Positions 30,670-53,568 of a stretch of DNA of 64,000 nt are shown here, in pieces. Location: assembly GCA_934141475.1 (NCBI GenBank), contig CAKPCG010000002.1:29165-93164 (forward strand), written 5' to 3'. Each line of letters opens with the position of its first letter. Positions within the stretch are counted from its first letter, which is position 1. The notes beneath the pieces are model-generated. The model was given only the letters and a program-made list of their open reading frames with translations. It was not told where the DNA came from and did no database searches. This stretch comes from an uncultured Clostridia bacterium. GTDB lineage: Bacteria > Bacillota > Clostridia > TANB77 > CAG-508. The position numbers and the translations under genes were made by a program.

Positions 30670-30688
30670 AAAAAATTAACTTTTTATG

Positions 30689-33944: not shown

Positions 33945-33971
33945 AATAAAGATAAAGTAGGGTATGTAAAA

Positions 33972-35123: not shown

Positions 35124-35222
35124 ATTTTTTTAATATGTTTGTTGGAGTTTTTTTAGGTGGAAAGTTGAATTATTGAAAATAATGTAGAATGTATATAAGA
35201 ATATATAGGAAAGAGAGGATGT

Positions 35223-36381: not shown

Positions 36382-36426
36382 CTCATAACCCGAAGGTCGT
36401 AAGTTCGAGTCTTACCCCCGCAACCA
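36382..36426 (+). repeat. 3' half of an initiator-type tRNA-Met (anticodon loop CAT to CCA). att-like direct repeat, copy 1.
   Basis: CTCATAACCCGAAGGTCGTAAGTTCGAGTCTTACCCCCGCAACCA. No 5' half is present upstream. The integrase gene lies 330 nt to the right. Confidence 0.6.
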
Positions 36427-36757
36427 AAAATTTTATTAGAGTCGCAAGAGATTGTGGACTCTTATTTTTTGATCATTTTATGTAACTTAAAATGAATTGG
36501 GCACCATTTGGGCACAAATCTATATAAAAAGGTTTTTGGTAAACCTTGAATTTTCGATATTTATAAATATATTTGATTAAATTCTATTTGAAATAAAATG
36601 AAAAAGTTTCTGCTTAAATTATAAAATATTAAATTGTAAAATTAATTAAAAGTATTTAAGCAGAAACTATCATGTCTTGATTTACTTCTTTATTATTATA
36701 ATTTTTCATAGAATTTTTTTCCTTTCAATTTTTTGTATAAATTTATGTGATAAGCCT

Positions 36758-37966
36758 CTAATTGGCTTTAAAATATTTTTTTGTATCTTCCCTATAAAGA
36801 AGATTATCAAGTTTATCTGATGCATCTCTGTCCATTCTCGCAAATGCATGTGCATAGATATTTAATGTTGTAGATGTTTGAGCATGTCCTAATCTATTAC
36901 TAACAGTTCTAACATCTAATCCTTGTGCAATAAGCAAAGTTGCATGTGTATGGCGTAAGCCATGAAATGTAATATGTGGCAAGTTTTTATCTTCTAGGAA
37001 CTGCCTAAACCATTTTGTAATTGTATCTGGATGCATAGGAGAACCATCCCATTGTACAAATAATCGATTTGTATTTTGCCATTTGTCTCCTAATTTTAAT
37101 CTTTTTTCTGATTGTTTTCTTTTGTAATCTTTTAAAAGTTTAGTAATTGAATCAGGGATGCTAATAACCCTGTTTGATGTTTCAGTTTTAGGATCTTTTG
37201 TATAGATACCAATAGAAGAAACATATTGACTAGCCTGTCTTACAGTAATTGAAGAATTTTTTAAGTCTACATCTTGCCATTCTAATCCTAAAACTTCTCC
37301 ACGTCTTAATCCTGTGAAAATTGTTAAAAGGATAATGACTCGAAACTTTAATTCTTCACTTTCCAATGCCTTAATTAATGCAATTGTTTGTACATCATCA
37401 TAGAAATTAATACTTGGCTTTTTAGCTTTAGGTGGTCTTACCCTTGATGCAGGATTGTATGGAATCATTTGCCAATATACTGCTTGTTGTAACATAGAAT
37501 GTAATAATCTGTGATGTTCCAGTACAGTTTTTGAAGATAACTTATGTTTAATATTTTTTCTAATATATGTTGATTCACTTAATTCTTGATATAAATACAT
37601 TAATTGCATTGGTTGAATTTTGTCTAAATACATGTTGCCGAGATAGGGGAGAATCCTTGACCTTAACATACTTTTATATCTTTCATAAGTTTTAGGAGAC
37701 AAATTTGGAATAGCATAATTGTTAATCCAAAAATCAGCATAATCTCTAAAACGCATCTTTTTTGCAGATAAGGCTTGTCCAGTTTCTATTTCAGATATAA
37801 ATAATGCTAATTCTTTTCTAGCTTCATTTTTGTTTTTTGCTTGAACTGTCTTTTTATAGATAATTCTTTTACCTTCTCCTGTATAGCCACCAGAAACTCT
37901 TAATCTATAAGAATTCTCTCCACGCTTTTCTATATTTCCTACCACACCTTCATCACCTCCTTTCAT
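36758..37966 (-). CDS. tyrosine-type site-specific integrase
   Basis: R...HGLRH...Y catalytic pattern (GLRRGEV, HGLRHTHATL, NIYAH). Adjacent to the tRNA-derived repeat. Confidence 0.85.
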   Translation of the reverse strand: MKGGDEGVVGNIEKRGENSYRLRVSGGYTGEGKRIIYKKTVQAKNKNEARKELALFISEIETGQALSAKKMRFRDYADFWINNYAIPNLSPKTYERYKSMLRSRILPYLGNMYLDKIQPMQLMYLYQELSESTYIRKNIKHKLSSKTVLEHHRLLHSMLQQAVYWQMIPYNPASRVRPPKAKKPSINFYDDVQTIALIKALESEELKFRVIILLTIFTGLRRGEVLGLEWQDVDLKNSSITVRQASQYVSSIGIYTKDPKTETSNRVISIPDSITKLLKDYKRKQSEKRLKLGDKWQNTNRLFVQWDGSPMHPDTITKWFRQFLEDKNLPHITFHGLRHTHATLLIAQGLDVRTVSNRLGHAQTSTTLNIYAHAFARMDRDASDKLDNLLYREDTKKYFKAN

Positions 37967-37985
37967 GTGGTAGGATAATTTTATA

Positions 37986-39005
37986 CTATCTTGAAATATA
38001 AACTTTAATATTAAAATTATCACTTGTATGTGACTCTAAATCAACTTTTAAACCTTGAAAGTTATTAATATAATAGTTAGGATCATAAATAAAGCATAAA
38101 AAGTTCCTGCATTTTGGATGAGATTTATATCTACCAATGTCAACTAACAATTCATCTCCTATTTGCTTATCTTTTAGTCCATCTCTAGTCATTTTAACTT
38201 CGATTCCGATTTCATAATCTGGTATAAGAAAATCTAATCGTGAATTGGCACCAGCATGGTTAGGAACAGCTTCTTCTGCTCTAATGTCTTTAAAGAATGT
38301 AAGAAACAAAGCATGTAATAAATCTTGTACATCATATTCATCATTAATAGTAATTGTTGATCTAGAAGAATGTCTAATTAATAATTGTTGTGCTATTGAA
38401 TGAAAGTTATTAAAAATATATTCTATTTTTGAAATAGCTTCGGCACTACTATGTGGATATATTTCTTGTTGAGAATATTTAAGTCTCGTTAATATTTCAA
38501 GAGATCTTGTATAAACATGATTTATAATTACTTTGCAATTAGACAAATCATGTCGTAAAGATAAAATTAATTTATCTTGTTTTTGCTTTTCATAATATAA
38601 GTCAATTGGGGATAAATTTTCTGGTAAACTCATAGAACTTATATTTTGTTCCAAAGATTCCATTGCTGAAATGAGATTTGTAACAGAATCGGAGTATATG
38701 GAATCTTTACCTACTTCATAAGTTCTATATTTTATGAAGTCTCTAGTAATTTCCATATATTTTTCATCTATTCTTTTTTCATCGCATAGACCTATATTTT
38801 TACATAACTGAATAAATTTCTCCTTAATTTTAGGTTCATAATTGCCTTTTAACTCTTTTGACTGAAGTTTAACCCAAAGCCAATCATATGGAAAATTTAA
38901 TTTTTCAGTAATTACAAGCATTTTAGATAAGACTATTGGCAAGTTCTTTTTATATTCTTGTTCTAAATCTTTTATACATTCATCTATTTCATCATAAATA
39001 TTCAT
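37986..39005 (-). CDS. hypothetical protein
   Basis: ORF co-directional with the integrase. Confidence 0.35.
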   Translation of the reverse strand: MNIYDEIDECIKDLEQEYKKNLPIVLSKMLVITEKLNFPYDWLWVKLQSKELKGNYEPKIKEKFIQLCKNIGLCDEKRIDEKYMEITRDFIKYRTYEVGKDSIYSDSVTNLISAMESLEQNISSMSLPENLSPIDLYYEKQKQDKLILSLRHDLSNCKVIINHVYTRSLEILTRLKYSQQEIYPHSSAEAISKIEYIFNNFHSIAQQLLIRHSSRSTITINDEYDVQDLLHALFLTFFKDIRAEEAVPNHAGANSRLDFLIPDYEIGIEVKMTRDGLKDKQIGDELLVDIGRYKSHPKCRNFLCFIYDPNYYINNFQGLKVDLESHTSDNFNIKVYISR

Positions 39006-39017
39006 AGTTAGTCTCCT

Positions 39018-40022
39018 TTATTTTTTACATTTATGCTTACTATCAGGCAAATAAAATTTATTGCACTCAAAACAGTAATTTGGAATATTACCATTTTTTA
39101 TATCCAAAAACAATTCATAATACATTAAAGAAAGTAAAGATTTATAAGAAATACTTTCTACAATTTCACCTGAATCAGTTTTTACAAAACGTTTTCGAAT
39201 ACCACCAGTTCTATAAGAAATTTGTTCTAAAGTTTTTTCTAACAATCTATTATCACAAGATAAGTTATAAACCAAACGGTGCATTTCTGATAAATAATCT
39301 ATATAACAAGATATAGGTTCAAAATATCCTGTTATTTTATATTCTTCTAATATTGAATTAAAACTATCTTTTCCAGGAAAGTCAACAGTTTTAAAATTTA
39401 AATCAAATTGAAATAAAGAAGGGTTATAATAATCTGTGTCAAATATTCCTAATTCAAATGGTTTAAAGATTGGAAAAGAAACATTAAACTTTTCATTTGT
39501 AGATTCATAAACTTCTCCAAAGAAACCATATTTACATGCAAAACTATAAATAGTTTTATAAAAAATTTCTCTATCTGTTGCATAAGAATTAATATTTAAA
39601 AACTTTAAATATATTCTTGAATTTTTTTCTTTTTCATCCAATGGATTAAAGAATATAATTTTAGAATCTTTGTTAGGACCATAAACTTCTTTACCAGTAA
39701 AAGAAGAATATTTTATGGGATTTTTTATTTTTAACCATAATGGTTTTTGACTAGGTAATATATCAATATAATCTTCTAAAGTTTTAAAACTATATTCACT
39801 AACTAAAGAATTAGTTTTTCCAGTTAAATATCCAACAGGTACATTAAAAAAGTTAGATAATTTATTTAAAACTTCAAATCCCGGTGTGGAATTATTTGAT
39901 TCGTAATTTGCGATGATTGATCTTTTTTCTCCAATAGCATTTGCTAATGCTTGTTGTGTAATACCTTTATTTTTTCTTAAAAGCTTTAATTTTTCACTAA
40001 AATTTGTATTCATCATAAACAC
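39018..40022 (-). CDS. XRE-family HTH protein with a large C-terminal domain (repressor-like)
   Basis: N-terminal LKLLRKNKGITQQALANAIG HTH. Transcribed divergently from the excisionase. Confidence 0.5.
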   Translation of the reverse strand: MFMMNTNFSEKLKLLRKNKGITQQALANAIGEKRSIIANYESNNSTPGFEVLNKLSNFFNVPVGYLTGKTNSLVSEYSFKTLEDYIDILPSQKPLWLKIKNPIKYSSFTGKEVYGPNKDSKIIFFNPLDEKEKNSRIYLKFLNINSYATDREIFYKTIYSFACKYGFFGEVYESTNEKFNVSFPIFKPFELGIFDTDYYNPSLFQFDLNFKTVDFPGKDSFNSILEEYKITGYFEPISCYIDYLSEMHRLVYNLSCDNRLLEKTLEQISYRTGGIRKRFVKTDSGEIVESISYKSLLSLMYYELFLDIKNGNIPNYCFECNKFYLPDSKHKCKK

Positions 40023-40103
40023 TCCAATATATTTTTATGAGAACATTATAAAACAATAATTTACATTTGTAAATAATTAAAACAAAAATATTTTAAAAAT
40101 GTA

Positions 40104-40132
40104 TTGACAAAAAACAAAAATATAAATAAAAT
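40104..40132 (+). promoter_or_regulatory. candidate rightward sigma-A promoter
   Basis: TTGACA, a 17-nt spacer, then TAAAAT. Confidence 0.3.
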
Positions 40133-40192
40133 GTTTTAAAACAAAACAGTAATGTTTTTGTTTTAAACAAATTAGATAGGAGGTGATTAGGC

Positions 40193-40432
40193 ATGGATAA
40201 TGAAAAATTAAATTCAAATACAAAAGAAAAAAGAGTTTTAGATTCAGTAGAAGCAGCACAATATTTGGGTATTTCATATTGGTTAATTCGTAAATTAGTT
40301 AGAGAAAAGAAAATACCATATTACAAAATTGAATCTAAAACACTATTTACAAAAGAAATTCTAGACAAATACATTCAAGATAGTCTAGAAGAACCAAAGA
40401 AAAAAGTAAAATATAGTTTTGATGATTTTTAA
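40193..40432 (+). CDS. excisionase/MerR-type HTH DNA-binding protein
   Basis: VLDSVEAAQYLGISYWLIRKLVREKKIPYYKI. Confidence 0.5.
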   Translation: MDNEKLNSNTKEKRVLDSVEAAQYLGISYWLIRKLVREKKIPYYKIESKTLFTKEILDKYIQDSLEEPKKKVKYSFDDF

Positions 40433-40470
40433 AATTAAAAAATATTTTACTAAAAAGGTGTTGATTACTG

Positions 40471-40947
40471 ATGAAAGGGGGAAAGAGATATTGGTTTAAG
40501 TTGTACAATAATTTTTTTGACAACGAAAAAATCAAGCAAATCAAAAGAAAAAAAGATGGAGATAGGCTTATTGTAATTTTTATAAATTGTTTAGTAATAG
40601 CAGCAAATTGTGAATCTGGAGGATATTTAAAAATAAGTGAAAATAAGTTTTTTACCATAGAAACATTAGCACATCATATGGGTAGAAATTAGAAAAGTAT
40701 CAAGAATGCATTAGATATTTTCCAGGAATATAGCATGATAGTACAAGATGAATATGGCTATAAAATTAAAAATTGGAATAACTATCAAAACTTACAGGAG
40801 AAAGGGATAAAGGATAAAAAAGAATCTACAAAAATAGGAAAAAATGTGGATACAGAAAGAGAAAAAGAATTAAAAAAAGAAATAGAAACAGAAGGAGGTG
40901 AATTTTATGCAAAACAGAGTTATGGAAAAATCAAAGATTTTATATAG
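40471..40947 (+). pseudogene. phage replisome-organizer N-terminal domain gene interrupted by an in-frame TAG at 40690..40692
   Basis: KRYWFKLYNNFFDNEKIKQI...TLAHHMGRN*KSIKNALDIFQEYSMIVQDEYGYKIKNWNNYQ reads as one frame across the stop. Track ORFs 40471..40692 and 40735..40947 are in the same frame. Confidence 0.5.
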
Positions 40948-41761
40948 TGTAGAAGAAATCTTGCAAAATGGTTATCCAATAAAAGCAAATATACCTGAAG
41001 ATACCAGATGTAAATATTGTAATAAAGTTTTAAAACCAAGAGGAATATTAAATCCAATAAGCAAAACCATAAATGTATTTATAGAAAATGAAAAATGCAA
41101 TTGTAAACAAGCAATAGAAGAAAGGAATAAGGCAAAAGAAAAGTTACAAGAAGAATTGATGAAACAATATGAGAATTATAGAAAAGAAGAATACAACAAA
41201 AAAATAAAACAATATTATGGAACAGATTTTATAACAGCACAATTTAAACAAAAAACTTTAGAGAATTTTATTACAAATGAACAAAATTCAAGAACGAAAT
41301 TAGCAGCAGAGAAATTTATATCAGATTTCAAAAACTTCAAGAATGGTATTATATTTGAAGGAAAAAGTGGAACAGGAAAAACACACATTTCAATGGCGAT
41401 ATGTAATGAATTATTAAAAGAAAATACGCCAATAATATTTGGAACATTAACAGAATTAGTAGATAAGTATGCTAAATTTTATACAAATCATACAGAAAGT
41501 GATCTAACAAAATTATATACAAAAGTAGATTTATTAGTTATAGATAATTTGGGACTTGAACCAATGAATGATTGGTTGTTATCTAAATTATTTACAATTA
41601 TAAATGAAAGAATATTAAATGAATTGCCATATATTATTACAACAAATTATGACAGAGATAAGTTAAAACAAAGATTAAGCATACCAAACAAAGTATGTGA
41701 AACAACAAATTCTATAATATCAAGATTATATAATATGTGCTACAGAATAGAATGCAAGTAG
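40898..41761 (+). CDS. DnaC/IstB-like helicase loader ATPase with an N-terminal Cys cluster
   Basis: Walker A GKSGTGKTH, DLLVIDNLG and CKYCN...CNCKQ. Confidence 0.65.
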   Translation: MNFMQNRVMEKSKILYSVEEILQNGYPIKANIPEDTRCKYCNKVLKPRGILNPISKTINVFIENEKCNCKQAIEERNKAKEKLQEELMKQYENYRKEEYNKKIKQYYGTDFITAQFKQKTLENFITNEQNSRTKLAAEKFISDFKNFKNGIIFEGKSGTGKTHISMAICNELLKENTPIIFGTLTELVDKYAKFYTNHTESDLTKLYTKVDLLVIDNLGLEPMNDWLLSKLFTIINERILNELPYIITTNYDRDKLKQRLSIPNKVCETTNSIISRLYNMCYRIECK

Positions 41762-41966
41762 AAAAAAGATTATAGAATATTAAAATTGAAAATAATGTAG
41801 CTATTTAATAGTGATGGAATATAAATTGGGAATAGTTTGGAAATTTATTGTTTTATTATTTAACTTTATTTTAGAATAATAAAAAATTTAGAATTAAAAA
41901 TCGAGATGTAATAATATTAAGTTTTTCAAACTAGCAAAAGAAAAATAGCTAAGTAAGGAGGTAAAG

Positions 41967-42590
41967 ATGTTAGAAAGAAAAATTGCAACATATGATAAAA
42001 CTAATTTTAGGAAAAGACTAAATGAGTTTTTAGAAGTTGCAAAAATATATAAGCAAGACGATTTGAATGAACATAATATTTATCAAGTTTTATATAAAAC
42101 AGAACAATTTAGAAATGCAATATATAAATGTATAAAACTAAAAAGACCATTAATAGTAGATTCACCATTGCCAGGAAAAGAAGATGGAATAAGTGAATAT
42201 GAGAGTAAATATTCAGATGAAATTTTAAAAATAAGGATTAATGAATTGTTGCCACCAGTAAGAACACCATATAATAATAAAAGATTAGAGAATACTTGCA
42301 AAGCAATAGGAGAAAAGTACAAAGGATTATTCACTAATAAAGAAGTTATTATTAGAGTGCAAGTAAGTGTACCAAGAAATAATTGGGATATAGATAATAG
42401 AGACTTAAGATATATTTTGAATGGATTTGTTTATGGTGGACTTATTACAGATGATAATATTAAATATGTAAGTTATATGTTAGAAGGAATTAATAACAAA
42501 GAAAATTATATAAAAATATTTATTGGTGATAAAAGGAATATTTTAAAAATTTGTAGTATAAATCCAAAAGAATATTTTGAAAAAGTGTGA
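41967..42590 (+). CDS. RusA-family Holliday junction resolvase-like protein with an extended N-terminus
   Basis: NWDIDNRDLRYILNGFVYGGLITDDNIKYV matches RusA DxDN...DD catalytic signatures. Confidence 0.5.
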   Translation: MLERKIATYDKTNFRKRLNEFLEVAKIYKQDDLNEHNIYQVLYKTEQFRNAIYKCIKLKRPLIVDSPLPGKEDGISEYESKYSDEILKIRINELLPPVRTPYNNKRLENTCKAIGEKYKGLFTNKEVIIRVQVSVPRNNWDIDNRDLRYILNGFVYGGLITDDNIKYVSYMLEGINNKENYIKIFIGDKRNILKICSINPKEYFEKV

Positions 42591-42863
42591 TTATTAATCA
42601 ATTTAAAAATATCCAACCAGTCACACTTTTGGAACTTTCAAAAAATCACACTTTTAAATAAATATATAAAGGCCTAAAAATAAACCAAAACTGACATTTT
42701 TTATACTTGAAAATTGTACATAGGTAGGGAATACATAACAGAAAAAACATATAAATACATGTCAGGGCGACTGGAGGCACAAGATGTTAATCTTGTGTCT
42801 TCTGTCGCATAAAAGTAAGTTGGAAGATAGATGGAAATGTAAAAAAGGGAGGAAGTGATTTAA

Positions 42864-43811: not shown

Positions 43812-43913
43812 AAGAAAATGGAAAAAATAACATAGAATCATTGAGAAAAAAGTCGTTTTATGATATAAATATATCATAGAAATAGGATAACTAATATATG
43901 GGAGTTTAAGAAT

Positions 43914-46900: not shown

Positions 46901-48671
46901 AAGGGAATTACCAATAACTGTATGTATAGGAAATCCACCTTATTCTATTGGACAGAAATCAGCAGACGATATGGCTCAAAATTTAAATTATAGTAAGTTA
47001 GATGAAAAAATAATGTGTACATATGCCAGATATTCTAAAGCTAGTTTAAGAAGGGGATTGTATGATAACTATATTAGGGCTTTTAGATGGGCAACAGATA
47101 GAATTGATGATCATGGAATAATAGCATTTATAACTAATGGATCATTTATTGACAATCAAGGAATGGATGGATTTAGAAAATGTTTAGTGGATGAATTCAC
47201 ATCAATTTATGTATTTAATTTGAGAGGTAATCAAAGAACATCAGGTGAAATGTCTAGAAAAGAAGGTGGAAAAATATTTGGAAGTGGCAGTAGAACTCCA
47301 GTTGCAATAACTTGCTTAATAAAAAATAAAAATAGAATGCAGGATAATTTTATACATTATTATGATATAGGAGATTATTTAAGTAGAGAACAAAAGTTAA
47401 CTATAATAAAAAAATATGGCAATATAAATAATATGAAATGGAAAAAGATAACTCCAGATGAAAATAATGATTGGATTAATATTAGAAATAGAAATTTTCA
47501 AAAGTTAATTTCTCTGACTCCAGAATTTAAAGGGGACATGCATACGAAATCTGTTTTTACAAATTATTTTATTGGAACTGTAAGTAGTAGAGATACATGG
47601 GTATATAATTATTCTAATAATAAAGTTAAATGTAATATGAATGAAATGATTAATTATTATAATAATGAAGTAGACAGAATTAAGACTGAAGGAGGAGATG
47701 TAAAAGTTAATACAGAAAAAATAAGTTGGTCTAGAGGGTTAAGACAGAGAGCAAAAAGGTGTGAAAAAATTAAATATAATAGTGATGTAATAATAAAAAC
47801 AATTTATAGACCATTTGTTAAACAAAATTTTTACTTTGATTCAAATGTTATTGAAAGTCCAGGAAAAGTTAAAGATATTTTTCATGATAATAATAAAATA
47901 ATTTGCGTATCAGGAGTAGGGGCTAGCAAAGATTTTTCATGTTTGATTTTAGATAATATACCTTGTTTGGATACTGTTGAAAAAGGACAATGTTTTCCAT
48001 TATATTGGTATGAAAAAAATGATAATAATTTGCTGGGTGAAGGCAACGATGAAGGATATATTAAACATGAAGGAATATCTGATGATATTTTAAATAAATT
48101 TGAAAAAAAATATAGTATAAAACTAAAAAAAGAAGATGTATTTTACTATATTTATGGAATTTTGCATTCTAAAGATTATAGAGAGACATTCAAATTTGAT
48201 TTAAAAAAATCTTTACCAAGGATACCTATAGTAGATAATTCTGAAGATTTTATTAAATTTTCAGAAGCTGGGAGAAAATTAGCGGATTTACATTTAAATT
48301 ATGAAAAAGTTAAACCATATAAAAAATGTGAAATAATAAAAAACAAAGATAATTATAAAGTTATTAAAATGAAATTTGGTAAAAATAAAGACAAATCAAT
48401 TATTCAATATAATGATAATATAATAATAAAAAATATTCCATCTAAAGCATATGAATATGTAGTCAATGGAAAATCTGCAATAGAATGGATTATGGAAAGA
48501 TATGCTATTACTACAGATAAGAAAAGTGGAATTGTTAATGATCCAAATGATTGGTGTAAAGAAGTAAATGATGAAAAATATATATTTAATTTATTATTAA
48601 GAATAATAAATGTTTCAGTTAAGACAGTAGATATAATAAATTCATTGCCTAAATTGAATTTTGAAGAGTAG
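43914..48671 (+). CDS. Type ISP restriction-modification enzyme (Mrr-like nuclease, SF2 helicase-like ATPase, gamma-class N6-adenine methyltransferase and target-recognition domain in one polypeptide)
   Basis: N-terminal DTGIDLVAK...QCKFY (PD-(D/E)xK). Walker A ACGTGKTFT, DEAH IICDEAHR and motif VI QSVGRVMR. MTase motif I DGFTGTGTF and motif IV NPPYSIG. 1585 aa, as for LlaGI/LlaBIII. Confidence 0.75.
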   Translation: MKIIEILEEFRKIFANERDKGTAFEKIVKIYLENEPKYREIIEKVWMWADFPYRDNIGDTGIDLVAKTVYDEYWAIQCKFYAEDHEITKGDVDTFLATSSKYFYVDGEKRKYDYRLFASTTNYYSKNAEETLQDQDPPVGRISLETLLESQIDWKKYSPVQNVIELKDKKTPRNHQNKAIKDVLNGFKEHDRGKLIMACGTGKTFTSLRIAEEQLNGTGNVLFLVPSIALASQTLTEWAAQCRYSFNAAIVCSDNKASKGEESIDLGFPSTTDVNRLKKWADKCKYDGKEMNFIFSTYQSIDVVSNFQKMTDYHFDIIICDEAHRTTGVTLSDEDESYFVKVHDDNFIHAKKRLYMTATPRIYGDAAKGKANSVNAELCSMDDESIYGPEFHRLSFSDAIKQDLLSDYKVLVLAVDEEYVKKELQDLLKGANHELQLEDSVKIMGCWNGLSKISTWDEKENFVTDPLPMKRAVAFCNRIKDSQKLVEMFKTIQKHVKEDKYNPESKNLVNIDIRHVDGSFNALEKKECINWLKEDIEDGNCRILTNARCLSEGVDVPALDAVMFLNPRSSMVDIIQSVGRVMRKAEGKKYGYVILPIGISASEDPDEALDKNEKYKLVWEILQALRAHDDRFNNTINKIELNKRKPDQIQVIGIGEKNAEDRDDGYKKVKIKTNKKVYEGQIKIDLETFDKWKESVYAKMVKKVGSRIYWENWAKDVAEIATSHMDKMRELINSDNPKIKKEIENFVTGLKENLNNSITQEDAIEMLAQHMITKPVFDALFENYEFVKNNPVSKTMQKMIDILDKEMSNEEKEKLNKFHESVKERAQGIDNAEGKQRIILELYEKFFKIALPKEVDKLGIVYTPPECVDFIIHSVEYLMNKEFGKSLSDHGVHIIDGFTGTGTFIVRLLQSGVVKKEDLLYKYTNDIHANEIVLLAYYIAAINIEETFHELSGKKEYTPFDGIVLTDTFQLYDNKYENNEYISEMLEENNERANRQRELPITVCIGNPPYSIGQKSADDMAQNLNYSKLDEKIMCTYARYSKASLRRGLYDNYIRAFRWATDRIDDHGIIAFITNGSFIDNQGMDGFRKCLVDEFTSIYVFNLRGNQRTSGEMSRKEGGKIFGSGSRTPVAITCLIKNKNRMQDNFIHYYDIGDYLSREQKLTIIKKYGNINNMKWKKITPDENNDWINIRNRNFQKLISLTPEFKGDMHTKSVFTNYFIGTVSSRDTWVYNYSNNKVKCNMNEMINYYNNEVDRIKTEGGDVKVNTEKISWSRGLRQRAKRCEKIKYNSDVIIKTIYRPFVKQNFYFDSNVIESPGKVKDIFHDNNKIICVSGVGASKDFSCLILDNIPCLDTVEKGQCFPLYWYEKNDNNLLGEGNDEGYIKHEGISDDILNKFEKKYSIKLKKEDVFYYIYGILHSKDYRETFKFDLKKSLPRIPIVDNSEDFIKFSEAGRKLADLHLNYEKVKPYKKCEIIKNKDNYKVIKMKFGKNKDKSIIQYNDNIIIKNIPSKAYEYVVNGKSAIEWIMERYAITTDKKSGIVNDPNDWCKEVNDEKYIFNLLLRIINVSVKTVDIINSLPKLNFEE

Positions 48672-48683
48672 AAGGGAATATAA

Positions 48684-49709
48684 ATGAAATCTGTAAATAG
48701 AAATGCTAGTGCAAGTGCTTTTGGATGGCAATTTCAAATTAATATAGCTATATATTTAATGATAAAGTATTTTGGAAAATTTAAAGAAATGAAAATAGAA
48801 GGGAAAAAAGAAGATATTGAAATTTCTTTAAATAATAGTAGAAAAATTTATGCACAAGCAAAATCAAAACAAAATATTAATGATGAAAACACAAGTTCAT
48901 ATCCAGCAAAATTAAAAAAAGCTTTAGAATCACTATCAGATGTTGATGATAGTGATCCTGAAAGTCTTATATATATAAGTAATTTAGAACCTAATCCATT
49001 AAATTCAGGAACAAATGAATTTGAATTAGTATCATTTCTGAAATATAATGAATTATCTTTAGCTTCAAGGCAAAAAATTGATATACAACTTGATAATATA
49101 AAAAGTAAGATAAATAAGAGCAAATTGATAGTTGCTAAAGTTCCCTTTTTTGGAGAAGACAAAGAAACAAAACAGAAATATATAATTGAAAAAATTGAAG
49201 ATTTTTTAACTTTTATTAGTTCTGATTTATTACCATATAAAAATAGATTTTTGGAAATGTGGGAGTCTGAGACATTGCATAATGCAACTCAAAGCAATAT
49301 GAAATTGAAAATAAAAAAAGAAGATGTTTTGTGGAGACTTTTGATATTAAAATTAGGCGATGGAAACTCAATAAAGTTTGATGAGAGTATGGGAATTGAA
49401 GAAGAAGATTTTTTTGAAGCATTAGATAGATATGATAGAATAATTAATTATAAAGAAGCTGATTTTGATGTTTATAATAAAATTAGTAATTTAATAGTAA
49501 AAGCAAAAAACGAAAATAAAGAAATAAGAAGCAATCAGTTTGTTACAAAATATGAAAAAGAAATATATGATGTGGTTTTTAAAGATAATAAAGATGAAAA
49601 GATGGAGACCATAGAGAAAGCTTGTTCAAAAATTATTGCTAAAAAAATATTCATAAGAAAAAGAAATATATTTCAAATGTTTGAAAGGGCTAATAAATAT
49701 GAAGATTAA
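48684..49709 (+). CDS. LmuA-like protein (DUF4297/Cap4-type nuclease fold candidate)
   Basis: FGWQFQ...KEDIEI...AQAKS resembles GxxFQ plus (D/E)...QxK nuclease signatures. Overlaps the downstream SMC-like gene. Confidence 0.4.
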   Translation: MKSVNRNASASAFGWQFQINIAIYLMIKYFGKFKEMKIEGKKEDIEISLNNSRKIYAQAKSKQNINDENTSSYPAKLKKALESLSDVDDSDPESLIYISNLEPNPLNSGTNEFELVSFLKYNELSLASRQKIDIQLDNIKSKINKSKLIVAKVPFFGEDKETKQKYIIEKIEDFLTFISSDLLPYKNRFLEMWESETLHNATQSNMKLKIKKEDVLWRLLILKLGDGNSIKFDESMGIEEEDFFEALDRYDRIINYKEADFDVYNKISNLIVKAKNENKEIRSNQFVTKYEKEIYDVVFKDNKDEKMETIEKACSKIIAKKIFIRKRNIFQMFERANKYED

Positions 49710-51132
49710 AAAAGTTATTATTCAAAGAAATTATGATTATAGAGAATTTGTTTTTGATGATAAAATTAATTTAATTTATAGTAAAGAAAACTCAAAAGGT
49801 AAGACTACTTTGTTAAGAGCAATATTATTTGGATTAGGATATAACATACCGGCAACAGATGGCATAAAAACTTTTGATGATTTTTATATACATATAGATT
49901 TAATAGAGAAATCCCATCAATATTCACTTGAAAGAAGTGGCGATATTGTTACATTGAATGAAGAAAATGAGAAAATAACTTACATAGTACCAGAGCAAAT
50001 ATATGAATTACATTCCAAAATCTTTAAAATAAATGATATTATAATGTTAAATAATTTATTAGCTATTTTTTATATAGATCAAGAAAAAGGATGGACACTT
50101 CTTAATAGAGGAATAATCATAGGCAAAAATAGATTTAATATAGAAGATTTCATTTCAACATTATCAGAAAAAGATGTATCTTCAATTAACAATGAAATAA
50201 AAAAATTAGAAGATGAAATAAGAAAATATAGATCGATTAAAAGTATTGCTGAATATAAAAATGAAAATATCATTGAGGAAGTTACATCTTATAGGAAAAA
50301 CGATGATAATGAGTTGTATAATAAGTTGAATTTGTTAAAAATGAGAGAAGTGGAAATAAAAAACGATATTAAAGATGTTAGTGGAATTTTAAAAGACAAT
50401 AAGAAATTAATTGATTATCTTGAAAAATTAGATATATATGTAAAGATTTCTGACGATAGTTCAATCAAGTTATCAAAAGAAAATATATTAAATTATAATG
50501 AAAATCAAATTTTTTATGAAACTAGAAAAAAAGAATTGGAAATCAATTTGGCTAAAGTAAAAGATGAGATTAATAGAATTGAAGATGAGTTAGATGATAG
50601 AAATATTTTATTTAATGTAAAAACTGTTGCAGATGAAGTTGATGATATGTTAAAGGACGTTAATATAAATGAAAGTCAAATGGATAAGATAATAGGTCAA
50701 TTAACAAGAAGAAAACAAAAATTGATGAATGAATTACATGAAATATTATCAGAAAATAATAAGTATTTAAATGAAATTTATAATACTATAAAAAAATATG
50801 CTAAAGAATTGAACTTTGACGAATATATTGGTGATAGTCCTAAATTTGTGTTAACAAATAAACTAAAAGGAAAGACTGGGAGAATATTAACACATATGGC
50901 ATTCTCTTTTAAAATGGCATATTTATTAGAAATAAAGAATAAATATGGTTTGATTTTACCTATAATAATAGATTCTCCACGAACAAATGAGTTAACTGAT
51001 GATGCTTCTGTTGCTATGATAAAAATATTGGAGCGAGATTTTAAGGATCATCAAGTGATTTTAGCATCTGTATATGATTTTAAAGAAATAAATAAAAAGA
51101 TTATAGAAATGAAAGAAAATTTATTTTGTTAA
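49699..51132 (+). CDS. SMC/RecF-like ATPase with a central coiled coil (LmuB-like)
   Basis: N-terminal NLIYSKENSKGKTTLLRAILFGLG Walker A. Long coiled coil. C-terminal LILPIIIDSP Walker B-like. Confidence 0.45.
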   Translation: MKIKKVIIQRNYDYREFVFDDKINLIYSKENSKGKTTLLRAILFGLGYNIPATDGIKTFDDFYIHIDLIEKSHQYSLERSGDIVTLNEENEKITYIVPEQIYELHSKIFKINDIIMLNNLLAIFYIDQEKGWTLLNRGIIIGKNRFNIEDFISTLSEKDVSSINNEIKKLEDEIRKYRSIKSIAEYKNENIIEEVTSYRKNDDNELYNKLNLLKMREVEIKNDIKDVSGILKDNKKLIDYLEKLDIYVKISDDSSIKLSKENILNYNENQIFYETRKKELEINLAKVKDEINRIEDELDDRNILFNVKTVADEVDDMLKDVNINESQMDKIIGQLTRRKQKLMNELHEILSENNKYLNEIYNTIKKYAKELNFDEYIGDSPKFVLTNKLKGKTGRILTHMAFSFKMAYLLEIKNKYGLILPIIIDSPRTNELTDDASVAMIKILERDFKDHQVILASVYDFKEINKKIIEMKENLFC

Positions 51133-51480
51133 AAATATACATTAATATTAAAATATATTATAAAGGATATATTGTTCAAGTGAAAAAAACAAGATATTAT
51201 TAAAAATAAGATAAAAGATGCTGAATACATATCCTGTTTTAAAAGAAAAAACAGAGATTTCAATAAAAAATGCTAAAAAAGTTGAAAAGTATCATTTGGA
51301 TTTAGGACAAACTTTAGATAATGAAAATTGCAATCCTTATACATCAGCATATAAAGTTGTAGAAGAATTAATAAAAAGAAATAATTGATACAGATGAAAA
51401 GCAAAGTATGAAAGTAATTTTTTAATTACAGGATTATTTTGCTTTTTATAGGATTTAGTATGAGAAAAGAAGGGAATAAA

Positions 51481-52383
51481 ATGAAAACGATATTATATAA
51501 AATAACATTACTAATAATTTTAACATTAGTCATATTTATATTACCAACAGAAAATATAATAAGAAATCTAATTATCTATGTAACACATATAAATAATGTA
51601 TATTTTGATATACTAGTAAAACTAGCTATTTTTTTATTAGTGATATTTATTTACGAATTAGACATAAAAAATTCAATAGAATATGGAAAAATTTACAAAT
51701 TTAGAACTCAAAAATTTGAAAGAAATCCAATAAAATATATTGTAATTGCTACATTAGGTTCAGAAGCATTAATTACAATAATATTAAGAATCTTAGATTT
51801 ATCAAAGAGAATAAATATATCATCAGAGACATGGGTAAATTATATTAGTAGTATATTAGGTATAACATTAACAGCATTTGGTATTATAATAACATTAAAT
51901 AAATATTTTAAAGATAAAGAAGAAAAAGAAAGTCCAAAATTAAAAATATTATCAGTTAATAAACCAGAGAAGATAGATTATTGTTGTAAAATTGATAATG
52001 ATTACACAAATAATTTAAAACATAAAATATACATTAAGTTAATAAATAAGGGTGATACAGCTATATTATCTCCTAATTTTAGAGATGAATATAATAATAT
52101 TTATGAAATAGAGCAAAAAAATGTGGAAAATCAAATTTTATATCAAATAGATCCATATGAACAAGAAAATAAGGATAAATATATAGTAGAATTAGAATTA
52201 TCTTTCAATGAAGGAATGTCAGAAAGAGTTTATAAATGCATTGATTTAATATATAATAATAAAGATTATAACGAATATATGACAACAATTAGAATAGAAT
52301 TTAATAGAAAAGATGGAAAGAATATATCTATTACTTGTGATAAGCAATTAAGAAATTATGATAGAATTTTAGGGATGGGGTAA
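51481..52383 (+). CDS. hypothetical membrane protein
   Basis: Three or four TM helices. GGGAATAAA RBS then ATG at 51481. Confidence 0.3.
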   Translation: MKTILYKITLLIILTLVIFILPTENIIRNLIIYVTHINNVYFDILVKLAIFLLVIFIYELDIKNSIEYGKIYKFRTQKFERNPIKYIVIATLGSEALITIILRILDLSKRINISSETWVNYISSILGITLTAFGIIITLNKYFKDKEEKESPKLKILSVNKPEKIDYCCKIDNDYTNNLKHKIYIKLINKGDTAILSPNFRDEYNNIYEIEQKNVENQILYQIDPYEQENKDKYIVELELSFNEGMSERVYKCIDLIYNNKDYNEYMTTIRIEFNRKDGKNISITCDKQLRNYDRILGMG

Positions 52384-52386
52384 AAA

Positions 52387-52803
52387 ATGAGAAATAAGTT
52401 AAATAAAATAATAGGTTATATTGTAATCATTTGTTTTATATATTTAATTATTTTTGAAAATAAATTTAATTTAGATTCATTCATTATAGGGAAATTTAAA
52501 TGTAAAACAGAAGAAGTAATATATTTTAAAAGTGTAATGTTAATTATAATCTCTTTAATTATTATGTTGATTAATCAAATAATTAACAAGTATGCAATTA
52601 ATATAGATTTACCACTCAAATCTTATATAAAAATTCATCCTATAAGAAGTGTAATTTTATTTGTAATATTATTAATAACTATATTAATATGTTCAATGTT
52701 TTTATTAGGTGTAACCAACATATTATGGTATATTATTCCATTAATATTAATTTGCTTTAGTGGTATTATTGGCTTTTATATAGGGATGATAGAAAAAGAT
52801 TAA
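52387..52803 (+). CDS. hypothetical membrane protein
   Basis: Four TM helices. Confidence 0.3.
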   Translation: MRNKLNKIIGYIVIICFIYLIIFENKFNLDSFIIGKFKCKTEEVIYFKSVMLIIISLIIMLINQIINKYAINIDLPLKSYIKIHPIRSVILFVILLITILICSMFLLGVTNILWYIIPLILICFSGIIGFYIGMIEKD

Positions 52804-52804
52804 G

Positions 52805-52846
52805 AAAAAAGTGTGATAGATAATACAATCTGAATCACACTTTTTT
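52805..52846. terminator. bidirectional hairpin between convergent genes, built from the AAAAGTGTGA/TCACACTTTT 10-mer
   Basis: aaaaagtgtga...tcacacttttt. Confidence 0.4.
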
Positions 52847-52851
52847 AAAAG

Positions 52852-53163
52852 TTACAATTTTAATAAAGCAATTGTATCTTGAATTCCATTCATATAATAC
52901 TTCTCATTCCAATAAATAGAATAATTTAAAAGTTCCTCTCTAAAATCATCAAGAATATTAGAAATATAATCAGAATCTTTGTCTGGAATAGCATCAAGAA
53001 TATTTTTACAAAAAGTATCATAATTGAGAGCATGTTTTCTATCTTCATCAGTTAAATTACTTTCTAATTTTTCAAATCTAAATTCCATCCAATCTTGTAA
53101 TAATTCATCATTATTATCATCTTTATTCATATTATTAAAACAACAAAAACATTTTTTATTCAT
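52852..53163 (-). CDS. hypothetical acidic protein with an N-terminal Cys cluster
   Basis: GGAGG RBS. MNKKCFCCFNN... Confidence 0.3.
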   Translation of the reverse strand: MNKKCFCCFNNMNKDDNNDELLQDWMEFRFEKLESNLTDEDRKHALNYDTFCKNILDAIPDKDSDYISNILDDFREELLNYSIYWNEKYYMNGIQDTIALLKL

Positions 53164-53330
53164 AATCAAAACCTCCATAAATTTATTAAATAATTGGGCT
53201 CAAAATGGGCACACAACCCACAAAAAATAACCCAAAATCACATAAATTTACAAAGTCAAAAAATTGGACACACCAAATATACCAATAAATACACCTCAAA
53301 ACTATATTTACCAATACTTTACGAGCTTTA

Positions 53331-53376
53331 CTCATAACCCGAAGGTGAGTGCGTTCGAGTCTTACCCCCGCAACCA
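53331..53376 (+). repeat. second, slightly diverged copy of the tRNA-Met 3'-half repeat (att-like, copy 2)
   Basis: CTCATAACCCGAAGGTGAGTGCGTTCGAGTCTTACCCCCGCAACCA. Identical to copy 1 except for the 5-6 nt in the middle. Confidence 0.55.
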
Positions 53377-53568
53377 CAATAAAATAAAGTATTTGCTAGA
53401 TTTTAGCAGGTGCTTTTTTCTTGCATTTTTGGGCAAAATTGTCACACTTTGGTCACAATTAGGGAGAGACTTGGCACAGCTAGGCAAGTTTTAACAGGAA
53501 ATGTATTTCAATAATTCACAGGAAGTGGTATAATTTGGGAAAATGATATAAGAAATGGAGAATTGAAT

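What the first reader, a model, noticed from the sequence alone, without database searches (positions are those of the whole stretch)
36382..53376. 17-kb integrative satellite/PICI-like element bounded by 45-nt tRNA-fMet 3'-half direct repeats, carrying two defence systems
The left end has the att-like repeat then the integrase (minus), an unknown gene, an XRE repressor (minus), a divergent promoter, excisionase, replisome organizer, DnaC-like loader, RusA and an unknown gene. The cargo follows: a Type ISP R-M enzyme, a Lamassu-like pair and membrane proteins. A second repeat closes the right end. There are no capsid, tail or lysis genes, so it looks like a phage satellite or defence island and not a prophage. 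Neither repeat is joined to a tRNA 5' half, and no intact tRNA-Met exists in the window. This implies tandem or decayed insertions at this site. The replisome organizer also carries an amber codon, hinting the element may be immobile.
Basis: partly seen in the sequence, partly recalled or inferred. Interest (0 to 1): 0.6.

Follow-up and report, generated by a model that had tools for sequence, protein, structure and literature searches.

The report
Mobile defence island at initiator tRNA
This is a real 17-kb mobile DNA island from an uncultured gut Clostridium that inserts into the initiator tRNA-Met gene and carries swappable anti-phage genes; the kind is well known, but this family seems undescribed and how it moves between cells is unknown.

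Summary
Two direct tRNA-fMet 3'-half copies (36382-36426 and 53331-53376) bound a 17-kb block. It carries a tyrosine integrase, an XRE/DUF6076 regulator, an excisionase, a DnaD-like organiser, a DnaC-like loader, an intact Type ISP enzyme and a PDC-M46 pair.

Comparison with about 90 related loci shows a widespread family in uncultured gut Clostridia. It recombines in the anticodon loop of tRNA-fMet. Its left arm carries the tRNA 3' remainder plus a terminator. In several genomes the integrase sits beside an intact tRNA-fMet; in most, as here, unrelated DNA abuts exactly at CTCATAA, giving tandem arrays.

The same Type ISP-carrying element occurs with at least 7 right and 3 left flanks, so it is or recently was mobile. 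Only the first 14-16 nt is shared at right junctions. The rest of the right "half" belongs to a decayed neighbour.

The core is conserved, with two cargo slots; slot 2 follows a conserved promoter and holds restriction and defence genes in relatives.

The amber codon is a CAG-to-TAG nonsense mutation seen only in this lineage. "PICI-like satellite" is unproven: no terS, capsid or primase-replicase gene was found. "RusA" is unverified. The "unknown gene" is a DpnII/MboI-type nuclease-domain protein.

The parts
36382..36426 (+). attL: att core (36382 to about 36397, CTCATAACCCGAAGGT, tRNA positions 32-47) plus the element-borne remainder of the tRNA-fMet 3' half through CCA
   Evidence: Identical to the 3' part of intact tRNA-fMet genes next to homologous integrases. 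Identity to relatives starts exactly at CTCATAA in 35 loci.
36438..36470 (+). Hairpin AGAGTC...GACTCT plus T-run directly after CCA. Inferred to be the terminator the element supplies for the rebuilt tRNA.
   Evidence: Sequence. Near-invariant across 13 family members.
36498..36515 (+). Two TGGGCAC direct repeats 11 bp apart. Inferred arm-type integrase sites of the left (P') arm.
   Evidence: Conserved in all aligned relatives. A third TGGGCAC lies in the right arm at 53206.
36758..37966 (-). Tyrosine integrase (402 aa as called), facing inward from the left end
   Evidence: Pfam Phage_integrase 4e-29 plus SAM-like N domain. phrog_1 at 7e-85. 88-99% identical copies in about 40 species-level MAGs.
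37986..39005 (-). Cargo slot 1: helical N-terminus plus DpnII/MboI-type restriction-endonuclease domain protein. Candidate defence nuclease.
   Evidence: PF18742 at 5.9e-46. PADLOC Aga_Helical-REase at 4.5e-27. The slot is variable in relatives. The exact protein is listed in 426 collection blocks.
39018..40016 (-). XRE-type HTH regulator with C-terminal DUF6076. Presumed repressor.
   Evidence: Two allelic types occur among relatives, about 90% and about 33% identity.
40045..40132 (.). Back-to-back divergent promoter-like sites: TTTACA-17-TATAAT on the minus strand and TTGACA-17-TAAAAT on the plus strand
   Evidence: Each matches 11 of 12 consensus positions. Consensus match only.
40193..40432 (+). 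HTH_17 (MerR/AlpA-type) excisionase-like protein
   Evidence: PF12728 at 2e-9. phrog_66 excisionase.
40471..40947 (+). DnaD-like replisome organiser interrupted by TAG at 40690-40692 (CAG to TAG at a conserved Gln)
   Evidence: Homology spans the stop (phrog_4880, residues 6-140). Gln is present in every other copy examined.
40907..41761 (+). DnaC/IstB-like helicase loader
   Evidence: PF01695 at 6.8e-15. phrog_50 at 2.4e-44.
41967..42590 (+). Conserved 207-aa core protein.
   Evidence: No Pfam, PHROG or PDB hit. Only a local motif match to RusA, E=0.17. 62-98% identity in relatives.
42582..42654 (.). Three copies of TCACACTTT, one of them inverted, at the end of the 207-aa gene and in the following intergenic region
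   Evidence: 6 copies in the window against 0.84 expected, all inside or abutting the element. Conserved in relatives.
42767..42808 (+). Conserved 19-bp GC-rich hairpin with a 4-nt loop, 55 nt upstream of the 315-aa gene
   Evidence: 5 pairs with compensatory changes; G.U pairs form only on the + strand. No Rfam match.
42864..43811 (+). Family-specific 315-aa protein: N-terminal winged helix plus alpha/beta domains with weak restriction-endonuclease-like resemblance
   Evidence: No Pfam hit. Only 65 representative clusters among 1.84 billion. AlphaFold model pLDDT 85.5. Fold hits are weak.
43841..43871 (+). Conserved promoter TTGAGA-17-TG-TATAAA. Homology to relatives ends at 43871, which is where cargo slot 2 begins.
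43914..48671 (+). Type ISP single-polypeptide restriction-modification enzyme (1585 aa), apparently intact
   Evidence: Mrr_cat_2, ResIII, Helicase_C, ISP_coupler and Type_ISP_C (1.9e-110). Full-length PADLOC match, E=0. FxGxG and NPPY methyltransferase motifs are in the translation.
48684..51132 (+). PDC-M46A (341 aa) and PDC-M46B (477-483 aa, SMC/LmuB-like ATPase): a candidate two-gene defence system
   Evidence: PDC-M46A 1.2e-62, PDC-M46B 8.9e-137, LmuB only 3.5e-15 and partial.
51218..52803 (+). 56-aa RloB-like fragment and two predicted membrane proteins (307 and 138 aa). Cargo of unknown function.
   Evidence: (RloB 3.7e-4, below the curated cut-off).
52803..52846 (.). Hairpin AAAAAAGTGTGAT...ATCACACTTTTTT between convergent genes. 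Inferred bidirectional terminator.
52852..53330 (-). Conserved right end: 103-aa gene (52852-53163, minus strand) plus right (P) arm with TTGGGCTC/TGGGCAC repeats (53195-53212)
   Evidence: 88% nt identity to the DNA preceding the half in L047. 38-46% protein homologues just before the half in L026, L030, L047 and L069. The exact protein is found with at least 7 right flanks.
53331..53346 (+). attR core CTCATAACCCGAAGGT. This is the true right boundary of the element.
   Evidence: the same element in other contexts shares only these 14-16 nt, after which the flanks diverge.
53347..53460 (+). Belongs to the right neighbour, not the element: T-stem-defective tRNA remainder, a hairpin, then TTGGGCA/GTCACAC repeats. 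Looks like the left arm of a decayed, integrase-less element.
   Evidence: Found only in window-type contigs.

Best explanation
The block from 36382 to 53346 is one copy of a site-specific integrative element. Its family is common in uncultured, low-GC gut Clostridia.

How it integrates: its phage-type tyrosine integrase recombines a 14-16-nt core, CTCATAACCCGAAGG(T). This core covers the anticodon loop, the 3' anticodon stem and the start of the variable loop of the initiator tRNA-Met gene. The left arm carries the rest of the tRNA 3' half plus a terminator hairpin, so insertion into the tRNA rebuilds a working gene next to int. Further insertions at the same core stack elements into tandem arrays. 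The window's copy is an inner member of such an array. Unrelated island DNA (ending in a SEC-C-motif gene) lies to its left, and the stump of a decayed element lies to its right.

What it carries: an XRE/DUF6076 repressor divergent from an excisionase operon, a DnaD-like/DnaC-like replication module, and three family-specific parts (a 207-aa protein, a conserved hairpin and a 315-aa winged-helix protein). There are two cargo slots. Slot 2 is driven by a conserved element promoter. Here it holds an intact Type ISP restriction-modification enzyme, the PDC-M46 candidate system and membrane proteins, so the element serves its host as a portable anti-phage island.

Shown: the boundaries, the att core, the family, cargo swapping and the varied contexts.
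Inferred: the repressor/excision logic, replication after excision and the defence activity.
Unknown: how it travels between cells. It has no virion or conjugation genes, so it probably depends on a helper.

This copy carries a recent nonsense mutation in the replisome organiser and is probably replication-defective. It should still be excisable.
For: Repeats and tRNA identity.

Family and target site:
- Integrase homologues of 88-99% identity occur in about 40 species-level MAGs from human, rabbit, mouse and chicken gut. The half lies about 330 nt beyond the int stop in essentially all of them.
- In 9 of 35 GTDB loci it is part of an intact tRNA-fMet. In the rest, diverse sequences abut exactly at CTCATAA.
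- Further metagenome copies show the same pattern: L070 and L086 are intact, others are not.
- An intact tRNA-fMet lies 5.7-9 kb further out in L032, L033, L055 and L063, which indicates tandem arrays.
- Anticodon-centred attP is the commonest class of tDNA island, and tandem arrays are known (PMC4383910).

Conserved core versus cargo:
- Homology covers 36382-37974 and 39017-43871 at 75-98% nt identity and stops at the same two boundaries.
- Slot 2 in relatives holds Type I R-M, Eco57I-like, Schlafen-helicase, Mrr, AAA_15/21, MazG and KAP genes.
- Slot 1 holds GNAT, methyltransferase, NUDIX, LigT and HIT genes.
- A conserved promoter sits at the slot 2 boundary.

Mobility of this very element: identical right-end protein and cargo with at least 7 right flanks, sharing only the 14-16-nt core, and at least 3 left flanks.

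Defence cargo.

Amber codon: CAG to TAG. Gln is present in more than 30 other copies, including Type ISP copies L004, L083 and L091. TAG also ends the neighbouring SEC-C and DnaC-like ORFs, so it is an ordinary stop here.
Against: - No excised circle, attP junction or empty site was observed for this copy. All 8 contigs carrying the window's left-flank gene that reach beyond it also carry the element. Two junction scans of JGI metagenomes found nothing.
- No intact tRNA-fMet or 5' half lies within 36 kb upstream or about 8 kb downstream. Core genes (spo0A, rpsB, tsf) sit only about 6.5 kb to the left. The standard model of newest insertion nearest the tRNA therefore needs an extra deletion or rearrangement that was not demonstrated.
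- The left neighbour ends with a coding gene 16 nt from the core and has no recognisable arm, which is unusual for an element end.
- Defence activity of the cargo is inferred from homology only. PDC-M46 is a candidate system.
- The varied flanks could partly reflect insertions and losses of neighbouring elements, not movement of this one.
Confidence: 0.85

Rival explanations
1. It is a phage satellite (PICI-like). A helper phage de-represses it; it excises, replicates and is packaged into helper capsids. The defence cargo protects the host and the satellite.
For: - The size (17 kb) fits.
- The layout is int, divergent regulator, xis, replication module, then accessory genes, with no structural or lysis genes.
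- Defence cargo sits in hotspots flanked by conserved genes, as in P4 and PICIs (PMC9122126).
- The core holds three conserved genes of unknown function and a conserved hairpin that could form an unrecognised hijack or packaging module.
- The replication genes resemble those of Firmicutes siphophages.
Against: - Of the five PICI core components (PMC10085698), no primase-replicase, terS or capsid-morphogenesis gene is detectable. That leaves a 'Type C'-like set, which the authors of that paper regard as ambiguous.
- Neither the integrase nor the 315-aa marker occurs in IMG/VR or in 50,697 phage records.
- No helper phage, induction or packaging evidence exists.
Confidence: 0.3
2. It is an integrative mobilisable element moved by conjugation. 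The conserved hairpin (42767-42808) acts as an oriT-like site and the adjacent 315-aa winged-helix/nuclease-like protein as an unconventional relaxase or accessory factor. The mating pore is borrowed from a co-resident conjugative element.
For: - A conserved hairpin with covariation lies immediately upstream of the 315-aa gene.
- The predicted fold is a winged helix plus domains weakly resembling PD-(D/E)XK nucleases such as EndoMS/NucS, Card1 and VC1899.
- No virion genes are present.
Against: - No relaxase, coupling-protein or type IV secretion family hit for any ORF.
- The structural matches are not significant: no PDB hit at E<=0.001, and the best viral matches are uncharacterised Bacillus phage proteins.
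- G.U pairs on the + strand suggest an RNA element in the 5' UTR at least as well as a DNA site.
Confidence: 0.12
3. It is a decayed prophage. The lysogeny and early-replication region of a temperate phage survived, and defence genes replaced the lost late genes.
For: The integrase, cI-like regulator, xis, DnaD-like/DnaC-like pair and a possible RusA-like protein make up a typical temperate siphophage early region.
Against: - The same short architecture, with the same left arm, the same core end at 43871 and a conserved right end, recurs in about 40 species and hundreds of contigs. None of them carries late genes.
- Random decay would not repeatedly give identical boundaries.
- The 315-aa core gene is absent from known phages.
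Confidence: 0.08
4. It is a fixed, non-mobile defence island, and the tRNA-like repeats are chance or dispersed repeats unrelated to integration.
For: This copy sits in the same context in every contig that carries the window's flanking genes. It also has a nonsense mutation in a replication gene.
Against: - The repeat blocks occur only twice in the window, against 0 expected.
- The left copy equals the tRNA-fMet 3' half and always lies about 330 nt from the homologous integrase.
- The same element occurs in many contexts.
Confidence: 0.02

Closest known systems
tDNA-integrating genomic islands with anticodon-centred attP (Islander class A; Williams 2002; PMC4383910)
   Same: - A tyrosine integrase lies next to the tRNA gene.
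- Crossover is in the anticodon loop.
- The element carries the tRNA 3' part, so the gene is regenerated.
- A displaced fragment marks the far end.
- Tandem arrays form at one tDNA.
   Different: - The target is the initiator tRNA-Met.
- In many contexts the far-end repeat is only a 14-16-nt core, not a full displaced half.
- Some family members have lost the tRNA remainder from their own arm (11-nt core only).
- In this window no intact tRNA remains at the array.
Tycheposons of Prochlorococcus (bioRxiv 10.1101/2020.12.28.424599)
   Same: - 10-20-kb elements with an inward-facing tyrosine recombinase at one end and a small replication module.
- Variable cargo and partial-tRNA flanks.
- Successive integrations push older elements into the island.
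- Degenerate remnants build large islands in small genomes; one related complete MAG here is 1.57 Mb.
   Different: - The hosts (gut Clostridia) and hallmark genes are unrelated.
- The replication module is DnaD-like/DnaC-like, not primase/helicase.
- Cargo here is mostly anti-phage, not nutrient-acquisition.
- No capsid or terS-bearing 'PICI-like' subtype was seen.
- Homology to the tycheposon recombinase lineage was not tested.
Phage-inducible chromosomal islands (PICIs/SaPIs; PMC6092414, PMC10085698)
   Same: - Similar size, a dedicated att site and the int/regulator/xis/replication order.
- Accessory genes lie between int and the regulator and at the far end.
- No structural or lysis genes.
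- Defence cargo.
   Different: - No primase-replicase, terS, capsid-morphogenesis or known interference gene.
- No helper, induction or packaging evidence.
- Not found in viral contig collections.
P4-like satellite and P2 prophage defence hotspots (PMC9122126)
   Same: Conserved core genes bracket a hotspot in which unrelated anti-phage systems replace one another between otherwise near-identical elements.
   Different: - The element families are unrelated.
- Here the hotspot begins immediately after a conserved promoter and runs to a conserved right-end gene.
- A second slot carries small enzymes (GNAT, NUDIX, LigT, HIT, methyltransferase).
Type ISP restriction-modification enzymes (LlaGI/LlaBIII type)
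   Same: A single 1585-aa polypeptide with an Mrr-like nuclease, an SF2 helicase-like ATPase, a coupler, an N6-adenine methyltransferase (FxGxG and NPPY motifs) and a C-terminal target-recognition domain.
   Different: Nothing notable. Its specificity is unknown, and it is element-borne.

Membership tests
tDNA-targeting integrative island (anticodon-centred attP) | A tyrosine integrase gene lies adjacent to the tDNA-derived att site | tested here: met
   The int stop at 36758 is 331 nt from the CCA end at 36426. The spacing is the same in about 45 related loci.
tDNA-targeting integrative island (anticodon-centred attP) | Direct repeat of a tDNA fragment at both ends, in the same orientation, with identity starting in the anticodon loop | tested here: met
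   The core shared across contexts is CTCATAACCCGAAG(G)(T).
tDNA-targeting integrative island (anticodon-centred attP) | The element-borne fragment regenerates an intact tRNA gene at the integrase-proximal end | tested here: not met
   Not met for this copy: there is no 5' half, and ARAGORN finds no tRNA. Met for the family in L019, L024, L027, L041, L057, L060, L061, L064, L070 and L086.
tDNA-targeting integrative island (anticodon-centred attP) | Excision and integration activity | not testable with these tools
   Only indirect evidence: the same element occurs in at least 7 right and 3 left contexts.
PICI (five core components, PMC10085698) | Integrase | tested here: met
PICI (five core components, PMC10085698) | Regulation module (AlpA, MerR or Stl homologue) | tested here: met
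   HTH_17 protein 40193-40432 and XRE regulator 39018-40016.
PICI (five core components, PMC10085698) | Primase-replicase module | tested here: not met
   There is no primase or replicase hit. The replication genes are a DnaD-like organiser and a DnaC-like loader.
PICI (five core components, PMC10085698) | Small terminase subunit | tested here: not met
   No Pfam or PHROG terminase hit for any ORF. A divergent terS among the unknown genes cannot be excluded.
PICI (five core components, PMC10085698) | Capsid-morphogenesis or interference gene | tested here: not met
   Same searches; no hit.
PICI (PMC6092414) | Helper-phage-dependent induction and packaging into phage-like particles | not testable with these tools
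   Only negative hints: absent from IMG/VR and INPHARED.
Tycheposon | Inward-facing site-specific recombinase at one end, adjacent small replication module, cargo, partial-tRNA flanks and tandem accretion | tested here: met
   Architecture.
Tycheposon | Lineage-specific tyrosine recombinase and the shared hallmark gene set of the Prochlorococcus elements | not tested
   No tycheposon sequences were available. The replication genes are of different families, so membership is unlikely.
Type ISP restriction-modification enzyme | One polypeptide with Mrr-like nuclease, helicase-like ATPase, coupler, methyltransferase and TRD | tested here: met
   PF13156, PF04851, PF00271, PF22240 and PF18135. PADLOC match over residues 4-1583, E=0. 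NPPY and FxGxG motifs are in the translation.
Lamassu | LmuB SMC-like ATPase together with a recognised LmuA effector | tested here: inconclusive
   Gene B matches LmuB models only partially (3.5e-15) and matches PDC-M46B over its full length (8.9e-137). Gene A matches only PDC-M46A and no LmuA model. It is best filed as the untested candidate PDC-M46.
RusA Holliday-junction resolvase (for 41967-42590) | Significant match to the RusA family | tested here: not met
   No Pfam hit even at E<=10. No PHROG or PDB hit. There is only a local D-x-D-N...D-D motif alignment to an E. coli RusA sequence recalled from memory, E=0.17.
Prophage | Capsid, tail, terminase or lysis genes | tested here: not met
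ICE/IME | Relaxase, coupling protein or type IV secretion genes | tested here: not met
   No such Pfam hit. The 315-aa protein remains unassigned.

The most novel reading that the evidence does not exclude
The family may be an undescribed class of helper-dependent elements (a satellite, or tycheposon-like) in uncultured small-genome gut Clostridia. Its conserved but unannotated module would be a new hijack, packaging or transfer apparatus. That module is the 207-aa protein, the TCACACTTT repeats, the covarying hairpin and the 315-aa winged-helix/nuclease-like protein. Serial insertion at the initiator tRNA core would then be the main way defence islands are built in these genomes.
Probability: 0.22. 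Interest if true: 0.68.

Novelty: new member of a known kind. Interest (0 to 1): 0.42.

Why it matters
The mechanism is textbook: a tyrosine integrase, an anticodon-loop attP, tRNA regeneration and tandem arrays. Defence cargo on integrative elements is also well known, so a specialist would not be surprised.

The value lies in the specifics. This is a very common, apparently undescribed element family in uncultured human and animal gut Clostridia. It has precisely mapped boundaries, a 14-16-nt att core and two defined cargo slots, one of them downstream of a conserved promoter. That makes it a natural catalogue of anti-phage systems for organisms that cannot yet be grown, and a possible integration tool for them.

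It also gives a concrete example of how defence islands grow by accretion at one tRNA gene. Finally, it provides a small set of conserved unknown parts whose function would reveal how the element travels between cells.

Tried and rejected
- ARAGORN and Rfam on the window and on flanking contigs found no tRNA, and no 5' half was found. The array's intact tRNA could not be located.
- Empty-site search: exact-protein look-ups of both flanking genes returned only occupied sites. Two exact-junction scans of JGI metagenomes returned nothing.
- Virome evidence: the integrase and the 315-aa marker are absent from IMG/VR. The 315-aa protein is absent from INPHARED phages and nearly absent from plasmids. 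The profile alignment was too divergent to scan with.
- RusA assignment: not supported.
- Stop-codon reassignment as an explanation for the amber codon: rejected. TAG ends neighbouring genes, and every relative has CAG at that position.
- A look-up of an upstream 638-aa protein was not on record.
- The Rfam E-value search of the hairpin region gave only a chance-level hit.

Full report
**1. The observation**

The left copy (36382-36426) reads CTCATAACCCGAAGGTCGTAAGTTCGAGTCTTACCCCCGCAACCA. The right copy (53331-53376) shares its first 16 nt and last 24 nt, but 6-7 nt between them differ, with one extra base. Each exact block occurs only twice in 64 kb, against 0.00 expected.

The left copy is identical to positions 32-76 of intact initiator tRNA-Met genes in related genomes, running from the anticodon loop to CCA. 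The substitution in the right copy destroys the T-stem. No tRNA, and no tRNA-fMet 5' half, exists in the window or in the roughly 8 kb beyond it.

**2. Gene content**

From left to right:
- A tyrosine integrase on the minus strand.
- A protein with a DpnII/MboI-type nuclease domain.
- An XRE regulator with DUF6076.
- Back-to-back promoter-like sites.
- An HTH_17 excisionase-like gene.
- A DnaD-like replisome organiser with an in-frame TAG.
- A DnaC-like loader.
- A 207-aa protein and a 315-aa protein with no family assignment.
- An apparently complete Type ISP restriction-modification enzyme.
- A gene pair matching PADLOC candidate system PDC-M46A/B over their full length. The second gene resembles LmuB only weakly.
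- A 56-aa RloB-like fragment and two membrane proteins.
- A small minus-strand gene at the right end.

Nothing matches a capsid, tail, terminase, lysis, relaxase or secretion family. "RusA" could not be verified.

**3. A family, and its target site**

A scan of one genome per species found integrases 88-99% identical in about 40 MAGs of uncultured Clostridia from human, rabbit, mouse and chicken gut. A second clade at about 48% identity uses the same site.

In essentially every locus the 45-nt half lies about 330 nt past the int stop. In 9 of 35 loci it is the 3' part of an intact tRNA-fMet. In the others the upstream sequence is unrelated and different from locus to locus, and the break falls exactly at the C of CTCATAA. 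In four loci an intact tRNA-fMet lies 5.7-9 kb further out. In several, the DNA before the half is the right end of another member of the same family.

This is the signature of an anticodon-centred attP, the commonest class of tRNA-integrating island, and of tandem arrays (PMC4383910).

Directly after CCA the element carries a near-invariant hairpin plus T-run. I infer this is a terminator for the rebuilt tRNA. Next come two TGGGCAC repeats 11 bp apart, with a third in the right arm. These are likely arm-type integrase sites.

**4. Core and cargo**

Nucleotide homology among relatives covers 36382-37974 and 39017-43871 and stops at the same two points in every comparison.

- Slot 1 lies between int and the regulator. 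Here it holds the nuclease-domain gene. Elsewhere it holds GNAT, methyltransferase, NUDIX, LigT, HIT and similar small enzymes.
- Slot 2 begins immediately after a conserved promoter (TTGAGA-17-TG-TATAAA, 43841-43869). It runs to a conserved right end at about 52886-53330. In relatives it carries Type I R-M systems, Eco57I-like enzymes, a Schlafen-type helicase, Mrr, AAA_15/21 ATPases, MazG-like and KAP NTPases.

Elements with 95% identical cores carry entirely different slot 2 content, so cargo is exchanged as a cassette.

**5. Is this copy, or was it recently, mobile?**

Exact-protein look-ups answer this better than the empty-site search, which failed.

The identical right-end protein, with the same Type ISP, PDC-M46 and membrane-protein cargo, occurs next to at least seven different right flanks. 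One is chromosomal (M23 and M50 peptidases, MinD, MinE) and one is a CRISPR-Cas locus. The same element occurs with at least three left flanks.

At all these right junctions only CTCATAACCCGAAG(G)(T) is shared, after which the sequences diverge. Two conclusions follow. First, the element's own att core is 14-16 nt. Second, the remaining 30 nt of the window's right "half", with its broken T-stem, belongs to the neighbour.

That neighbour begins like a left arm: a tRNA remainder, a hairpin, then TTGGGCA/GTCACAC repeats. It has no integrase. It contains genes whose close homologues (80-91% nt) lie at the ends of other array members elsewhere. I read it as a decayed element.

Further right lie a DEDDh exonuclease, a MamI-type R-M system, Hachiman, a truncated integrase with a DUF6076 gene, an IS, AIPR and a ThsB-TIR gene. 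To the left are an AAA_15/21 ATPase with weak PDC-M55-like partners and a SEC-C-motif gene. The finding is thus one intact unit inside a much larger accreted defence island.

**6. The amber codon**

It is CAG to TAG at a conserved glutamine. More than 30 other copies have Gln, including three Type ISP-carrying copies in other contexts (L004, L083, L091). The stop is seen only in contigs with the window's SEC-C left flank. TAG ends neighbouring genes, so recoding is not the explanation.

This lineage's copy is therefore probably replication-defective and inherited vertically. The int gene, the xis gene and both att cores are intact, so excision is not obviously blocked.

**7. What remains unexplained**

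- No intact tRNA-fMet is present at this array, and core genes (spo0A, rpsB, tsf) lie only about 6.5 kb to the left. The simple model of newest insertion next to the tRNA needs an additional deletion or rearrangement here, and I could not demonstrate one.
- Some family members carry only an 11-nt core with an unrelated left arm. One locus has a displaced 5' half beside an intact tRNA. Array dynamics are richer than the textbook scheme.
- The route of cell-to-cell transfer is unknown.

**8. The conserved unknown module**

The 315-aa protein belongs to a rare family: 65 representative clusters among 1.84 billion, with no Pfam match. A confident model (pLDDT 85.5) shows a winged helix followed by alpha/beta domains. 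It has only weak, non-significant resemblance to PD-(D/E)XK nucleases, and its best viral matches are uncharacterised Bacillus phage proteins.

Just upstream are a 19-bp hairpin with five compensatory pairs and + strand G.U pairs, and repeated TCACACTTT motifs (6 against 0.84 expected). These could be a 5'-UTR regulatory RNA, an origin, an oriT-like site or a packaging signal. I cannot tell which.

**9. Comparison and verdict**

Mechanistically this is a standard anticodon-loop tDNA island. Ecologically it most resembles tycheposons and the defence hotspots of P4 and PICI satellites.

It fails three of the five PICI core criteria, and nothing shows helper dependence, so "PICI-like satellite" remains a hypothesis at about 0.3. 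It is a new family of a known kind, with modest surprise and good descriptive value.

Noticed in passing
window 42767-42808: A GC-rich 19-bp hairpin with a GNUA loop sits 55 nt upstream of the 315-aa gene. It is conserved across the family with 5 compensatory pairs, and its G.U pairs form only on the + strand. It has no Rfam family. It could be a 5'-UTR RNA, an origin, or an oriT- or pac-like site.
   Followed up: partly
window 42582, 42621, 42646, 52808, 52835, 53442: The motif TCACACTTT occurs 6 times against 0.84 expected, always inside or abutting the element. Two sets form inverted pairs (AAAGTGTGA...TCACACTTT) that look like terminators or operators. One copy lies in the neighbour's arm just after attR.
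   Followed up: partly
window 43841-43871: A conserved extended -10 promoter ends exactly where homology between family members stops. Swapped cargo cassettes are therefore placed under an element-owned promoter.
   Followed up: partly
window 53347-55360: The DNA right of attR looks like the stump of another element: a T-stem-defective tRNA remainder, a hairpin and arm-like repeats, with no integrase. Its TehB-like methyltransferase (54383-54964) and ASCH-like stretch (54956-55360) have 80-91% nt homologues immediately upstream of the half in L067, L071 and L072, in the opposite order.
   Followed up: partly
window 55396-63444 and beyond (L015 12732-21196): More defence genes follow: a DEDDh exonuclease-TPR protein (PDC-S48-like), a MamI-type II R-M pair, and Hachiman (HamA 59942-60898, HamB 60907-63444). 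Next come a truncated integrase (from about 63638, minus strand) with a DUF6076 gene, an IS, AIPR and ThsB-TIR. This is a large accreted defence island.
   Followed up: partly
window 32355-36365: The left neighbour consists of an AAA_15/AAA_21 ATPase (NsnB/PDC-M55A/AriA-like, 1e-46), a 383-aa protein (weak PDC-M55B match) and a 380-aa SEC-C-motif protein whose stop codon is 16 nt from the att core. It may be an untested three-gene defence system. It has no recognisable element arm.
   Followed up: partly
window 25350-31524: spo0A, rpsB and tsf lie just left of the island. tsf is followed not by pyrH-frr but by small ORFs and an SSB-like gene (phrog_26861). This suggests the island boundary or a rearrangement lies right after tsf.
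   Followed up: no
L069, L084-L085, L087-L090, L092 (about 9615 from the locus end): These family members have a left arm that keeps only CTCATAACCCG (11 nt), followed by unrelated sequence and a different hairpin. They cannot rebuild the tRNA, and none was seen directly joined to a tRNA 5' half (in L084/L090 a tRNA-Met gene lies about 4.6 kb further out).
   Followed up: partly
L086 about 9624-9845 (reverse orientation): A displaced tRNA-fMet 5' half plus a variant core (CCCAACGG) lies 221 nt upstream of the intact tRNA-fMet that abuts the integrase. This hints at elements or events that duplicate the 5' half.
   Followed up: no
L027 1587-1662: The rebuilt tRNA-fMet is chimeric. The host 5' strand has T where the element-borne 3' strand has G, giving a G.U pair in the anticodon stem. 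This places the crossover left of core position 11.
   Followed up: partly
window 39018-40016 versus relatives: The XRE/DUF6076 regulator comes in two allelic types (about 90% and about 33% identity) on otherwise similar cores. This is reminiscent of immunity-type swapping.
   Followed up: no
window 51218-51388: A 56-aa ORF after PDC-M46B weakly matches the C-terminus of RloB (E 3.7e-4, below the curated cut-off). It may be a remnant partner of the ATPase.
   Followed up: no
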